30,952 bases of DNA from Candidatus Omnitrophota bacterium. Lineage in GTDB: Bacteria > Omnitrophota > Omnitrophia > Omnitrophales > Aquincolibacteriaceae. Below, one piece after another: positions 15,001 to 21,000 of this stretch (position 1 is the first letter of the stretch; each line of letters opens with the position of its first letter). A program made the position numbers. Location of the stretch: assembly GCA_043803685.1 (NCBI GenBank), contig JAZDJU010000108.1:1-30952 (forward strand). The letters run 5' to 3'.

Positions 15001-18000
15001 TCCGCAAGGTTCTGAACGAACTGAATCCGTCGGAAGCAATGGAGCTTCTGGTGGACCGTCTTAAAAAAACCAAATCCAACGCTGATTTTCTTCTCAGCAT
15101 GAATAAAGTAAAGGAGTAACAAACATGAAAAAAGACATCCATCCCAAGTACGACGTTTCCACCATCCAGTGCGCGTGCGGTAACGTGATCGAAACGCGCA
15201 GCGTGATGCCCCGGATCCAGGTCGATATCTGCTCGAGCTGCCATCCGTTCTTTACCGGCAAACAGAAGATCCTCGATACCGCCGGCCGCATCGACCGTTT
15301 CAAGAAGAAATTCCAGGATCGCGTGGCCGTGAACAAAAAGGCGACCAAAGTGGTTCCCAAGATGCCGGTGAAGCTCAAGTTCTCCGAGGATACCCGGAAA
15401 GAAAAACTCCAGGCGCTGAAGGCGAAAGTCCAGGCGGAAGGAAAATAAAAAAGGATCCGGATGGCGGATGACGGATGACGGATGGTGGAAAAGGTTCAAC
15501 GCCATCCTCTATCCTCCATCCTCCATCCTGTTTTTAGATGAGAATTCGCGAACGATTAGAAAAAACGGAAGCAAGGTTTCACGAGATCCAGGCCTTGCTC
15601 GAAAATCCCGATACAGCCCGGAGCAGGTTCCAGGCCCTGAGCAAGGAGATGTCGCTCCTTAGGCCGATCATCGAGCTTTTTGAAAAGTACAAAAAGAGCG
15701 AGCAAGAGATCGGGGGACTGAAGCACGGCCTTGAAGGCAGTCACGGGGACGAGGCTATGAAGGATCTTATCACCGAAGAGCTCGGCGCGCTCGAGGCGGG
15801 GCAGAAGGAAGCGGAAAGCAAGCTCGAAGAGCTTTTTCTCCGGGATATGCAGCCCGATGCGGCGCGGGACGTGATCGTGGAGATCCGCGCAGGGACCGGA
15901 GGCGAGGAGGCAGCTCTTTTTGCGGGGGATCTTTTCCGCATGTACAGTATGTATGCCGGGAATCATGGCTTGCGCATCGAGGTGATGGACGCGAATCCCA
16001 CGGGGATCGGCGGGTTCAAGGAGATCATTTTCGGCGTGACTGGGGACCATGTTTTCAGCTTTTTCAAGTATGAGAGCGGGATCCATCGCGTCCAACGCGT
16101 GCCGAAGACCGAAGCAAGCGGGCGCATTCACACCTCGGCGGTCACAGTAGCGGTATTGCCTGACGTTGAGGAAGAAGAGATCGAGATTCTTTCGACCGAT
16201 CTCCGGATCGATGTCTATCGCGCTTCGGGAGCCGGGGGACAGCACGTAAACAAAACCGAATCGGCGGTGCGTATTACGCACATGCCGACCGGATTTGTAG
16301 TCGCGTGTCAGGATGAAAGGTCCCAGCAAAAAAATAAAGCGAAAGCCATGCGCATTTTACGCGCGAAGATCTTTGATTTTCGCCGGGCCCTGCAGGAAGC
16401 CGAAGTCGCGAAGAACCGCAAAGCGCAGATCGGCTCCGGGGATCGCTCGGGCAAGGTAAGAACTTATAATTATCCGGATAACCGGATCACGGACCACAGG
16501 ATCGGTCTTACGCTTCACAGTTTGAACCAGGTTCTGGACGGGAAACTCGACCCCGTGATTCAAGGGCTTGCCGAGGACGAAAAAACCCGACTTCTGACGA
16601 CTTTATGAGCTGTGCGGAAAAACGGAAAGAAAGCGGGCTTCTTGAGCTGATCGCCTGGGGGCGAAAAGAGCTTTTAGGTGCCGGGATCGACGAAGCTCAG
16701 GAAGAATGTGAGCGGATCCTGATGAAGCTCCTTGGGTGTAAGCGTTCCGGGCTCTATTTAGGAGAGCACGAGATGGCCGCGTCAGGGGTTCGTGGTCAGT
16801 TTTTGACGATCCTCGAAAAGAGAATCTCAAGAAAACCGCTAGCCTATCTTTTGAACGAGGCTGATTTTTGGCAAGAAACTTTGTATGTAGACGAGCGATG
16901 CCTCATCCCGCGGCCTGAGACTGAGATCCTGGTCGAGCAGGTTTTGAAAGCGGCCGGAGAGAGAGCTGAAAAAGAGTTTTCATTTTTAGATATCGGAACG
17001 GGCTCTGGAGCGATCGCGATCGCGATCTTGCGAGAGCTTAGGAACTCCAGAGCGACACTGCTCGATATTTCCAAAGAGGCGCTCGAAGTGGCAAGAAAGA
17101 ACCTAGAGCGTTATGTTCTCGGAGATCGTGTTAGTCTGATCCAGGGTAATCTGTTTGAGCCGTTCTCAAACGGCGAGAAATGGGATCTGATCATCTCGAA
17201 CCCGCCTTATCTATCGAAAGAGGATTGGAAGGGAGTCCAGGAAGAGCTCAGCTTTGAGCCCCGAATGGCCCTGGATGGCGGGGAGGACGGTCTGGATTTT
17301 TACCGGAAGATCGTTCAGGGCGCAAAGGGGCATTTATCGCCCGGCGGGCTTCTTGCCCTAGAGGTGGGACAAGGACAGGCGGATATGGTTTCAAAGTGGC
17401 TTCAAGAAGCGGGTTATGATAATATTCAGCGTTTTAATGACCATTTACGGGTCCAGAGGGTCGTAACGGCCCAGAGGCATTCATAGCTTTATATGGATAA
17501 GATCATCATTGAGGGCGGTTTTCGACTTAAGGGCGAGGTCGATGTTTCGGGGTCGAAAAACGCTGTGCTGCCTATTATGGCGGCAGCGCTTCTGACCGAG
17601 GAGGAATCTGTTATTACGAATGTCCCGTCGCTTTGGGACGTTCACACGATGGTGAAACTTCTCCGGTCATTGGGCGCGAAGGCGATCCTTGAGAATGGTT
17701 GTTTAAAGGTCAAGCCGGGCAAGAATCTGAAACCGCTCGCGCCTTACAAGCTTGTAAAGACCATGCGCGCGTCGGTGTGCGTGCTAGGGCCGCTTTTGGC
17801 GCGACTTGGAGAAGCGGAGGTCTCACTTCCCGGGGGTTGCGCCATCGGGCCGAGACCGATCGATCTTCACTTGAAGGGCCTCGAGGCCTTGAATGCTGAG
17901 ATTGTTATCGAGCATGGGTATGTGAAGGTCAAAGCCAAAACGAAATTGCGTGGAGCGGAGATCTACCTCGGTGGCGGCTATGGCTCCTCGGTGCTGGCGA

Positions 18001-21000
18001 CAGACAATGTGATGATGGCGGCGACCTTGGCGCATGGAAGAACCGTGATCGAGAACGCGGCCTGCGAACCGGAAGTCGTGGACCTGGCGCGGTTCCTGAA
18101 AAAAATGGGAGCAAAGATCACGGGCGAAGGTTCGCCAAGACTCGAGATCGAGGGCGTCAGAAAACTCCATGGCGCTGAGCACCAGGTGATCCCGGACAGG
18201 ATCGAGGCGGGCACGTTCCTTTATGCTGCGGCGATCACGGGCGGAGACATCCTGGTCCGGAAAATGGAACCGAGCCATCTGAACGCGGTGATCGACAAGC
18301 TTCATCAAGCGGGTGTGCGCGTTGAAAAATTCAAGAACTCCGCGCGTGTAAGAAAAAATGGAAAGTTGAAACCTGTCGATATCACGACACTGCCGTATCC
18401 GGCGTTCCCGACGGACCTGCAGGCTCAGGCGATGGCGCTTGCGACGGTGACGCCCGGGATCAGCGTGATCACGGAAAAGATCTATCCGAACCGTTTTATG
18501 CACGTGCCCGAACTTGGCCGTATGGGCGCGAAGGTTTTTTTAGAGGGGCCGAGCGCCATTGTGCATGGCGTTAAAAAATTGAGCGGAGCGCCGGTGATGG
18601 CCTCCGACCTCAGAGCCAGCGCAGCGCTTGTGCTGGCGGGTCTGGTGGCAGAAGGCGCGACGGAAGTTCAGCGCGTGTATCATCTGGACCGGGGTTATGA
18701 GAACCTCGAACAGAAACTTACGGCCCTCGGAGCTTCGATCCGTAGGGAGAAGGAATAGTTTTAATCAGCATTCAGCGTTAAGCGGTAAGAAAAAAATCCT
18801 GTTTCTTTAACGCTTACAGCTTAACGCTTATCGCTATCAACAAGGAGGCAACGTGGCAGTCAAAATCAGAATGAAACGTTTCGGCAGCAAGAATCGTCCT
18901 CAGTGGCGTGTCGTGGTCAGCGATGCGAAGATGCCGCGGGATGGGCGCTTTATCGAGGAGATCGGCTATTATGACGCGCTTCCCAAGGAAGATATTTTCG
19001 TCGTAAAACAGGATCGTCTCGAGTATTGGGTTAAGCAGGGAGCGCAGATGAGCGCGGCCTTGAAGAGCCTTGTGCGGCGCGAGAAGAAAAAAACAAAAGC
19101 GAAAAAGAGCGCCTAGCACTGTTCTCCATTTGATTTTAAGAGTTAACAGTACTGCCCAAGTCTTTATTTCTTTTTATTAAGGGTGACTTGGACTGCACTG
19201 ATTTTCGATCATTTTTTAATGAAAATCAGGTGCTGTACCGCATACCCTTAATTTCAAATGTGATGCGGTACTAGGACCTTTCGGTCAGAAAGGCGTTCCA
19301 TGCTCACGATCGAGATTGTGACGCTTTTCCCGGGCTTTTTTAGCGGCCCGCTTGAGGAATCGCTTTTGGAAAAAGCCCAGGCGAAAGGTCTTTTAAAGGT
19401 CCAGACGCACGATCTTCGCGATTGGACGCACGACCGCCATAAAACCGCGGACGATAAACCGTTCGGCGGCGGGGCGGGAATGGTCATGAAGCCCGAACCG
19501 ATCTTCGAGTGCGTCGAAGCTGTTGGCGAAGACGCCTGGGTGGTGTTGATGGATCCCCAGGGCGAGCCTTTGAGTCAGGCGCTGGCTGAAAAGCTCGCGA
19601 AGAAAAAACATCTTGTCCTGATCGCAGGGCATTATGAGGGCGTGGATCAGCGCGTGAAAGACCACCTGATCGATCAAGAGATCTCGGTGGGTGATTTCAT
19701 CACGATGGGCGGCGAGGCGCCGGCCCTTTGTTTGATTGAGGCGGTTGTGAGACTTGTGCCGGGTGTTCTGGGGAACGCGGAATCGATCAAGCATGAAAGT
19801 TTTCAGACGGGCATGCTGGAGCATCCCCACTATACGCGTCCTCGCGAATACCGGGGGTGGAAAGTCCCTGACGTGCTTGTCTCGGGGGATCATAAAGAGG
19901 TGGCGGCCTGGAGGGGCAAGACGGCCGAGCAAGTCACGAGACGAAGAAGACCCGATCTTTTAAAATAATTTACACAAACGGAGAACAGCCAAATGAACAA
20001 AATGGACATAGTTGAAAAAGAAGCTGCAGCGAAAAAGACGCCGGAGTTTCGCGTCGGGGACACTCTCAAGGTGCACGTTCGAGTCAAGGAAGGCGACAAG
20101 ACCCGCACCCAGCTTTTCGAGGGCGTCTGTATCAGTAAAAAGGGAAAGGGCGTTCGCGCGAGTTTCACCGTCCTCAAAGAAAGTTACGGGGACAAGGTCG
20201 AGAAGATCTTCCCGCTTCATTCGCCCAACGTTGAAAAGGTTACCGTCAGCGTGAAAGGCAAAGTTCGCCGCGCGAAACTGTATTACCTGAAAAACAAGTA
20301 ATCTTCCTCCGGCCCTAAGGACGATGGAAGGAGCTGAAAAAAAATCCCGCCGGGAGATCCTCCTGGAGAAGCTCTTGGATTTTGACCGGCAAGCAACCCC
20401 CGCGCAAGTCGGGGGATGGCTCGCCGGCGTGGATGAGGCCGGGCGCGGCCCTTTGGCCGGTCCCGTGGTCGCGGCAGCCGTGATCCTTGTAAGGCCCGAA
20501 ATCCTTGCCGGCATCAACGACTCCAAAAAGGTGAGCGCCAAGCAGCGCGATGAACTTTACGTCAAGATCGCTCGCTCCGGCATCGTGGGCATCGGCTTCG
20601 CGGACGAAAAACAGATCGACGAACTGAATATCTACGAAGCCACGCGCCTGGCCATGAAAAAGGCCGTGCTGAATCTTTCCCACACTCCCACAGGCCTGCT
20701 GATCGACGGTCCTATGCGCCTGGACCTTGAGATCGAACAAAAGGGCGTTATTCACGGCGATGGGAAATCGGCGAGCATTGCCGCCGCCTCGATCGTAGCC
20801 AAGGTTTTTCGGGACCACTGGATGCAAAAACTTCATGAGCTTTATCCCGCCTACGGATTTCATAACCACAAGGGCTACGGAACGGCCGAGCACATGCAAG
20901 TTCTCAAGGAAAAAGGTCCAGCCCCCATTCACCGGCATAGCTTTGCGCCGGTTCGTGAGGCGGCAGAGGCTTTCCGCGTCCCCAACACGAAGAAAGCGCG

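What a model noticed while it worked through the whole genome (the two positions that open the first line are those of the whole stretch)
17493..20301. No signal recognition particle: Ffh, FtsY and 4.5S RNA are all missing, here and across Omnitrophota
The genome encodes SecY, SecE, SecG, SecDF, YajC and YidC but no SRP: no SRP54-type GTPase (neither Ffh nor its receptor FtsY), no Ffh M domain and no 4.5S/SRP RNA. In the widely conserved ffh-rpsP-rimM-trmD-rplS neighbourhood only rpsP, trmD and rplS remain (C108:18853-20301), preceded by murA. This is not an assembly gap: the same searches are blank in near-complete relatives, so membrane-protein targeting in this phylum must work without the otherwise universal SRP pathway.
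Evidence so far: Tables: no SRP54, SRP54_N or SRP_SPB Pfam row, no Swiss-Prot hit to Ffh/FtsY among 2589 proteins, no SRP RNA row in rna.tsv; SecY g00809, SecE g00840, SecG g00371, SecDF g02313, YajC g02314, YidC present. Call 138: order murA-rpsP-trmD-rplS-rnhB. Call 136: no SRP-GTPase motif pair (G.GK[TS]T ... D[TS][AS]GR) in the six-frame translation. Call 145: tblastn and phmmer with two Ffh and two FtsY proteins taken from MAGs of other phyla find nothing better than E 0.02 (tblastn) or P-loop noise. Call 129: Pfam PF00448 six-frame at E<=1e-10: 0 of 20 genomes of the genus, all candidates scored; control 14 of 14 model genomes. Call 137: 11 of 401 Omnitrophota genomes (397 >=90% complete) have one matc [...]
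(Added by a program. Inside this text positions count along the whole contig: contig position 1 is position 1 of the stretch shown here. "Call 12" and the like, gene names such as g00115 and contig names such as C1 are that model's own, and its searches are not shown. The text may have been shortened before it was handed on; [...] marks where a part breaks off. The agent that wrote the report below was given it as the finding of a first reader that could run no searches.)

Follow-up and report, generated by a model that had tools for sequence, protein, structure and literature searches.

The report
Omnitrophota lack the signal recognition particle
This bacterium and the hundreds of Omnitrophota genomes searched show no native copy of the signal recognition particle, the machine most cells use to deliver new membrane proteins, so their ribosomes likely dock on an ordinary-looking membrane channel without it.

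Summary
Confirmed. No Ffh, FtsY or SRP RNA in this genome. In 401 Omnitrophota genomes the Ffh M domain occurs once, on a foreign (Desulfomonile-like) contig; FtsY passes its cut-off in none; the other GTPase hits are flagellar FlhF; SRP RNA 0 of 150. Controls: rpsP 149/151, YidC 111/111, M domain 70/81 in Verrucomicrobiota. Gene order shows deletion: relatives keep prmC-murA-ffh and ffh-rpsP-khpA-trmD-rplS-rnhB, Omnitrophota have murA abutting rpsP (29/30 loci). This assembly alone proves little (it also lacks secA, at a contig break). No replacement found: YidC is single-copy without the basic ribosome-binding tail that rescues mitochondria and Streptococcus mutans (0/66), SecY and SecA are ordinary, no Get3/ArsA. 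Likely mechanism: direct ribosome capture by SecYEG/YidC with SecA, tolerated in 0.2-um cells (about 0.5). SRP-less bacteria are in print (Leptospira, Dehalococcoides, SAR86, Elusimicrobia); my searches found no report for Omnitrophota. This scan noted the same loss twice before on other Omnitrophota genomes. New member of a known kind.

The parts
13644..15119 (+). rho, start of the conserved cluster
   Evidence: TIGR00767 over cut-off
15125..15448 (+). rpmE (L31)
   Evidence: TIGR00105; same place before prfA in SRP-bearing G437
15538..16608 (+). prfA (release factor 1)
   Evidence: TIGR00019
16605..17486 (+). prmC
   Evidence: TIGR03534; prmC-murA-ffh in G409, prmC-ffh in G440
17493..18758 (+). 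murA, the gene upstream of the missing ffh
   Evidence: TIGR01072; directly upstream of rpsP in 29 of 30 Omnitrophota loci
18759..18852 (.). 94-bp murA-rpsP junction where ffh lies in relatives; no remnant
   Evidence: gaps of about -1 to 349 bp, median 35, in the 25 of 30 loci that could be measured
18853..19116 (+). rpsP (S16)
   Evidence: TIGR00002; 149 of 151 phylum genomes
19117..19299 (.). 183-bp spacer where khpA lies in SRP-bearing relatives
   Evidence: khpA queries find nothing in this genome
19300..19968 (+). trmD; nearest named relatives are Omnitrophota
19993..20301 (+). rplS (L19)
   Evidence: TIGR01024
20324..21028 (+). rnhB
21025..21423 (+). yraN
8935..10026 (+). PilT ATPase, the genome's best false hit to the SRP54 profile (P-loop only, positions 4-38 of 196)

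Best explanation
Ffh, FtsY and SRP RNA are not found in the Omnitrophota genomes searched and were likely deleted early in the phylum, and new membrane proteins likely reach the membrane because translating ribosomes dock directly on SecYEG (with YidC beside it), probably helped by SecA. Shown: absence in the sample, the closed-up gene order, and intact SecY, YidC and SecA. Inferred: that the ribosome-SecY contact that normally ends the SRP cycle is enough to start insertion, that SecA catches part of the nascent chains, and that this is tolerable because the cells are about 0.2 um wide, so a ribosome is never far from a translocon; FtsH would clear what misses. My odds: absence real 0.96; this route, given absence, a little over one half.
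For: Absence: (two single-contig genomes among five, all candidates scored, P-loop noise only). Controls. Deletion: G437 has rpmE-prfA-prmC-(3 other genes)-ffh-rpsP-khpA-trmD-rplS-rnhB-yraN, G409 prmC-murA-ffh; SRP RNA sits right before dnaX in 3 of 5 outgroup genomes, whereas 4 of the 7 Omnitrophota dnaX loci (of 30) with tRNA-Ser upstream leave under 50 nt. Machinery kept: SecY 41 of 41 with the ribosome-binding R357 equivalent in 30 of 30 (role from PMC4737761); SecA over cut-off in 142 of 151, with zinc tail 30 of 30 and basic residues at E. coli 625/633 in 26 and 30 of 30 (their role as ribosome contacts is recalled); YidC 111 of 111, one copy each; FtsH, LepB, SecDF-YajC, trigger factor present. 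About a tenth of ORFs have three or more hydrophobic segments (215 of 2238; 115 of 1092 in G125; crude scan). Precedents: SecA targets RodZ co-translationally without SRP (PMC5674894); slower translation offsets SRP loss in E. coli (PMC8299109 abstract); cell size about 0.2 um (PMC10066038 abstract).
Against: No positive sign of adaptation was found: the kept features are also those of SRP-bearing bacteria, so they allow this route but do not single it out. The acidic uL23 patch that docks SecA in E. coli (F51/E52/E54/E56/E89) is only partly kept here (F,E,H,E,K) and is basic in G125 (Y,K,K,D,E). YidC has lost rather than gained basic tail residues. SRP is also missing from 2-4 Mb Verrucomicrobiota genomes with no evidence of tiny cells, so cell size cannot be the general reason. 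Translation rate and cell growth were not measured.
Confidence: 0.52

Rival explanations
1. An unrecognised, non-homologous factor (protein or RNA) has taken over recognition of nascent transmembrane helices and delivery to SecY.
For: The loss is complete, old and stable in a phylum with a normal membrane-protein load and giant proteins with up to 147 predicted helices (bioRxiv 10.64898/2026.06.07.730766). A conserved His/acidic YidC tail (HHED-like) marks this genome's order.
Against: No candidate turned up: no ArsA/Get3 in 0 of 5 genomes, no SecB or Tat hit with E. coli queries, the 280-aa gene after nusB is a PHP phosphoesterase, the one small Met-rich protein is not in the 76% of G125 read. 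The HHED tail is absent from most other classes. No genome-wide profiling could be run.
Confidence: 0.2
2. mRNAs of membrane proteins are bound at SecYEG/YidC first and translated in place, so no nascent-chain targeting is needed.
For: In E. coli, membrane-bound mRNAs give SRP-independent insertion and bind via SecYEG and YidC (PMC10066597 abstract); both are kept here.
Against: No test here bears on mRNA location; the paper describes a parallel back-up route. It overlaps with the best explanation and may act with it.
Confidence: 0.18
3. YidC tethers ribosomes through a long basic C-terminal tail, as Oxa1 in mitochondria and YidC2 in Streptococcus mutans.
For: This is the textbook bypass (PMC3268725 passages); YidC is in 111 of 111 genomes.
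Against: One copy only; 0 of 66 parsed Omnitrophota tails hold five or more K/R (median length 11), against 14 of 25 in SRP-bearing Verrucomicrobiota (median 22); the 4 unparsed Omnitrophota tails are visibly short too.
Confidence: 0.05
4. SRP is present but too divergent to detect, or missed through incomplete assemblies.
For: All are profile searches; only the best 6 or 10 candidates per genome were scored; RF00169 misses Bacteroides among the controls and one search used strict filters and 25 candidates a genome; this assembly lacks secA.
Against: The same searches pick up the distant paralogue FlhF, a foreign Ffh and an 80-residue fragment; single-contig genomes are blank with all candidates scored; PVC-tuned protein and RNA models are blank; the ancestral slot is closed; SRP GTPases are among the most conserved proteins (general knowledge).
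Confidence: 0.04

Closest known systems
SRP-less Leptospira, Dehalococcoides and SAR86 (Fouts et al. 2016, PMC4758666; passages read)
   Same: Ffh, FtsY and SRP RNA all missing while the Sec system is kept; cell geometry was offered there too as the reason.
   Different: Genus- or lineage-level there; here a sample of 74 families of one phylum. The novel low-complexity gene near sec genes described for Leptospira has no counterpart seen beside secY, yajC-secDF or yidC in this genome.
Elusimicrobia with few SRP homologues (Harris and Goldman 2021, PMC7987157; passages read)
   Same: Phylum-scale scarcity of Ffh and FtsY with SecY retained.
   Different: They note long SecY branches; Omnitrophota SecY loops and tail match SRP-bearing relatives. 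Omnitrophica is not named in that paper.
Oxa1 / Streptococcus mutans YidC2 bypass (PMC3268725, PMC8546722; passages)
   Same: Membrane insertion without SRP, YidC family present.
   Different: Needs a basic ribosome-binding tail or a second YidC; Omnitrophota have neither.
SecA co-translational route for RodZ (PMC5674894; passages) and SRP-null E. coli suppressors (PMC8299109; abstract)
   Same: SRP-independent delivery to SecYEG by parts that Omnitrophota keep.
   Different: Shown for few substrates or sick mutants of E. coli; here it would serve a whole proteome; the uL23 acidic patch is not uniformly kept.

Membership tests
Naturally SRP-less bacteria (Leptospira type) | No Ffh (NG plus M domain) | tested here: met
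   PF02978 1 of 401, that one on a foreign contig; PF00448 in 285 genomes gives no native Ffh
Naturally SRP-less bacteria (Leptospira type) | No FtsY | tested here: met
   TIGR00064 over cut-off 0 of 401; the 11 weaker hits are ten FlhF and the foreign Ffh
Naturally SRP-less bacteria (Leptospira type) | No SRP RNA | tested here: met
   RF00169 0 of 150 (strict filters); PVC-built model 0 hits in 1.19 Mb of G125 and in 53 window/dnaX/rpsP/contig sources; 5 of 5 outgroup genomes ring. RF01854 not run
Naturally SRP-less bacteria (Leptospira type) | SecYEG, SecA and YidC retained | tested here: met
   secA absent from this assembly at a contig break
Naturally SRP-less bacteria (Leptospira type) | Absence shown on a fully closed genome, every base read | tested here: inconclusive
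   Two single-contig genomes searched whole with PF00448; the custom models covered 1,188,200 of 1,553,238 bases of G125 only
Oxa1/YidC2 tail bypass | Long basic C-terminal tail on YidC | tested here: not met
   0 of 66 with five or more K/R
Oxa1/YidC2 tail bypass | Second YidC paralogue | tested here: not met
   one match in each of 111 genomes
SecA co-translational targeting | Full-length SecA | tested here: met
   142 of 151 over cut-off
SecA co-translational targeting | Acidic docking patch on uL23 | tested here: inconclusive
   three of five positions kept in this genome, basic in G125; many unassigned uL23 also basic
SecA co-translational targeting | SecA binds ribosome-nascent chains of membrane proteins | not testable with these tools
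   needs biochemistry or selective ribosome profiling
GET/TRC40-like route | ArsA/Get3 ATPase | tested here: not met
   PF02374 0 of 5 genomes

The most novel reading that the evidence does not exclude
Omnitrophota evolved a dedicated, non-homologous replacement for SRP that delivers even their 10,000-147,000-residue multi-helix proteins to SecY: a third bacterial targeting route, perhaps reached more than once among PVC bacteria.
Probability: 0.2. Interest if true: 0.88.

Novelty: new member of a known kind. Interest (0 to 1): 0.62.

Why it matters
SRP is taught as universal and is used as a marker gene and a LUCA component. A phylum of abundant nanobacteria that builds the longest known membrane-anchored proteins without it makes the question of what SRP is really needed for testable by comparison: SRP-bearing and SRP-less relatives with the same gene cluster exist side by side, and the usual explanation (a basic YidC tail) fails here. 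The 2026 complete-genome preprint still names 'Sec / SRP / YidC' as the canonical route for these giant proteins.

Tried and rejected
G192 Ffh as native SRP: no FtsY in that genome, 75-77% identical to Desulfomonile Ffh, contig GC 48-55% against 39-45% and tetranucleotide correlation -0.18 to 0.72 against 0.69-0.97 among the other nine contigs: mis-binned. G522 fragment as a pseudogene: 99% identical to Chloroflexus Ffh; in 4 of 4 runs laid the contig goes on as Ffh at the junction and not into the Omnitrophota sequence: chimeric contig end. FtsY-sized gene after nusB (16 of 30 loci): PHP phosphoesterase. The ribH-nusB-ftsY slot was seen in only 1 of 5 outgroup genomes, so it is weak evidence for where ftsY was. 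Weaker first helix: YidC TM1 hydrophobicity 2.31 (n=30) against 2.22 (n=25), p=0.64 (kin not independent). Met-rich scan: one small candidate on C6, no atlas hit, not found in the part of G125 read. Helix-8 regular expression: 42 unpaired chance hits and it missed divergent controls, dropped. blastn with E. coli ffs: nothing under E 2.8. uL23/uL29 from 80 metagenome loci: no taxonomy, no clear contrast. No structure or complex prediction was run.
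Full report
What the window shows. The cluster rho-rpmE-prfA-prmC-murA-rpsP-trmD-rplS-rnhB-yraN is as described. 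murA ends 94 bp before rpsP. The nearest named relatives of the window's TrmD are Omnitrophota. The genome (G000) is 91% complete and 6.6% contaminated.

Own genome. PF00448 with all 56 candidates scored gives only P-loop pieces; the best is PilT. E. coli Ffh and FtsY give no phmmer hit at E 0.05 while SecY, YidC, YidD, SecDF, YajC, trigger factor, uL23, uL24 and uL29 do. Five Ffh and five FtsY from PVC and Hydrogenedentota genomes, a profile of 30 Verrucomicrobiota Ffh and one of the five FtsY (--max) reach E 0.035 at best. RF00169 reaches E 9.8 (150 of 231 candidates scored). But canonical secA is missing from this assembly as well; prfB, its upstream neighbour in most of 30 relatives' loci, runs off contig C101. 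The case therefore rests on the phylum.

Phylum. M domain PF02978: 1 of 401 genomes, 74 families. FtsY TIGR00064: 11 of 401 at E 1e-8, none over the cut-off (6 candidates scored a genome). Ten of the 11 are FlhF lying after flhA (the 4 of 10 scanned pass the FlhF cut-off). The eleventh, G192, is a true Ffh without FtsY, 75-77% identical to Desulfomonile Ffh, on a contig whose composition is alien to the other nine. A second, overlapping draw of 285 genomes down to 70% completeness gave 9 hits: seven FlhF, G192, and an 80-residue piece at a contig end in G522 that is 99% Chloroflexus Ffh and continues as Ffh in 4 of 4 public runs laid. Five genomes in 1-6 contigs, all candidates scored, give P-loop noise only. 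RF00169: 0 of 150 (strict filters). A covariance model built from six PVC/Hydrogenedentota SRP RNAs and E. coli ffs finds nothing at E 1 in 1,188,200 of the 1,553,238 bases of single-contig G125 or in 53 further sources; no held-out control of this model was run. Positive controls in the same genome set: rpsP 149 of 151, SecA over cut-off 142 of 151, YidC 111 of 111, dnaX 69 of 71, nusB 60 of 61, SecY 41 of 41. In outgroups the same profiles ring: SRP GTPases and SRP RNA in 5 of 5 named PVC/Hydrogenedentota genomes (G405 shows FtsY only), M domain in 70 of 81 Verrucomicrobiota-phylum genomes.

Deletion, not relocation. murA directly precedes rpsP in 29 of 30 Omnitrophota loci (the 30 best-scoring rpsP matches), with gaps up to 349 bp in the 25 measurable, and in G125. 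In the outgroup, ffh precedes rpsP in 5 of 30 loci, follows murA in 1 and prmC in 1; G437 reads rpmE-prfA-prmC-(three other genes)-ffh-rpsP-khpA-trmD-rplS-rnhB-yraN and G409 prmC-murA-ffh. The ancestral order prmC-murA-ffh-rpsP is inferred from these two. rimM is already missing from those Verrucomicrobiota loci, so its absence is not part of this event; khpA is missing here and was not found elsewhere in G000 or the read part of G125. SRP RNA stands before dnaX in 3 of 5 outgroup genomes; in 7 of 30 Omnitrophota dnaX loci tRNA-Ser stands upstream, in four of them under 50 nt away. The old place of ftsY is less sure: ribH-nusB-ftsY was seen in 1 of 5 outgroup genomes; in 30 Omnitrophota loci nusB is followed by ribD (13), a PHP phosphoesterase (16) or another gene (1).

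How they manage. A crude hydropathy scan gives three or more helices in 215 of 2238 ORFs here and 115 of 1092 in G125; the phylum also makes giant proteins, most with predicted helices (bioRxiv 10.64898/2026.06.07.730766, passages). The known bypass, a basic YidC/Oxa1 tail (PMC3268725, passages; PMC8546722, passages), is not used: YidC is single, and 0 of 66 parsed tails (of 70 loci) hold five K/R, against 14 of 25 in SRP-bearing and 1 of 6 in M-domain-negative Verrucomicrobiota (two non-Verrucomicrobiota outgroup tails were not parsed, one SRP-bearing row parsed to length 0). This genome's order carries a short HHED-like tail instead. SecY keeps loops 6/7 and 8/9 and the R357 equivalent in 30 of 30 (role from PMC4737761, passages), and its basic tail is shared with SRP-bearing relatives. 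SecA is full length with its zinc tail in 30 of 30. The uL23 acidic patch for SecA (PMC5674894, passages) is partly kept here and basic in G125. No ArsA/Get3 (0 of 5), SecB or Tat hit. By elimination the likeliest route is direct capture of translating ribosomes by SecYEG/YidC, aided by SecA, in cells of about 0.2 um (PMC10066038, abstract), possibly with mRNA-first targeting (PMC10066597, abstract) and slow translation (PMC8299109, abstract). All of this paragraph's mechanism is inference.

In print. SRP loss is described for Leptospira, Dehalococcoides and SAR86 (PMC4758666, passages) and remarked for Elusimicrobia (PMC7987157, passages). For Omnitrophota I found no report: 'Omnitrophota' with 'signal recognition particle' 0 papers; 'Omnitrophica' with 'FtsY' 1 paper, PMC7203096, of which only the first 300,000 of 769,434 characters are held and the passages seen do not state it; further searches (listings only); no ffh, ftsY or KO number in the main text of the two phylum papers or in 8 supplements of PMC10066038. 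The preprint's supplements and subscription journals were not searched. This scan noted the same loss on two other Omnitrophota genomes and in several other lineages; these notes are not independent support.

Verdict. Real, phylum-wide in the sample, a clean loss with no visible replacement; a new and unusually large member of the known class of SRP-less bacteria. Interest 0.62.

Noticed in passing
G408, G412, G416, G419, G422 (Verrucomicrobiota-phylum draw): 11 of 81 genomes lack the M domain; the 5 tested also lack both SRP GTPases and SRP RNA. In a YidC tree they fall in one clade mixed with SRP-bearing genomes, in at least three places: repeated, more recent losses.
   Followed up: partly
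G000 C91:13018-14643 and L104-L132: YidC of this order ends in a conserved hydrophobic strand plus His/acidic motif (HHED-like) instead of a basic tail; other classes mostly end within a few residues of the last helix.
   Followed up: partly
window:19117-19299; G000 C91:11113-14643: khpA is gone from the rpsP-trmD slot and was not found in this genome or the read part of G125; yidC is followed directly by a GidA/MnmG-like gene with no jag/khpB between.
   Followed up: partly
G000 C101:1-609: prfB runs off the contig end and secA, its usual neighbour, is missing from the assembly; the only SecA-like match is a domain inside a 4,183-aa ORF on C12.
   Followed up: yes
G000 C62 and C117, C89 and C37: Duplicated secDF and ribosomal protein genes from a close relative: contamination of the bin.
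   Followed up: no
G192:C8 (L009, L023, L024, L101, L102): 71-kb Desulfomonile-like contig mis-binned into an Omnitrophota species representative.
   Followed up: yes
L493:1510-1745 (G522:C72): Chimeric contig end: Chloroflexus ffh piece joined to Omnitrophota DNA.
   Followed up: yes
L013-L022, L487, L488: A minority of Omnitrophota (12 genomes, several families) carry flhA-flhF flagellar loci, so an SRP-type GTPase survives there without Ffh or FtsY.
   Followed up: partly
G034:C26:20914-21861; G022:C8:46007-46969: A second, weak SecY-family match inside an 11,957-aa open frame (G034) and in a 477-aa frame (G022); a SecA-like domain inside a 4,934-aa frame in G050. Giant proteins may carry their own translocon parts.
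   Followed up: no
G000 C47:13291-26721: A 4,476-aa giant ORF contains a PHP phosphoesterase-like domain.
   Followed up: no
G000 C37:126740-126810: Long hairpin just upstream of tRNA-Ser(CGA), not SRP-like.
   Followed up: no
window:5314-8858: RnfC/RnfD-like genes followed by two small membrane genes, ahead of pilT; identity read from the translation only.
   Followed up: no
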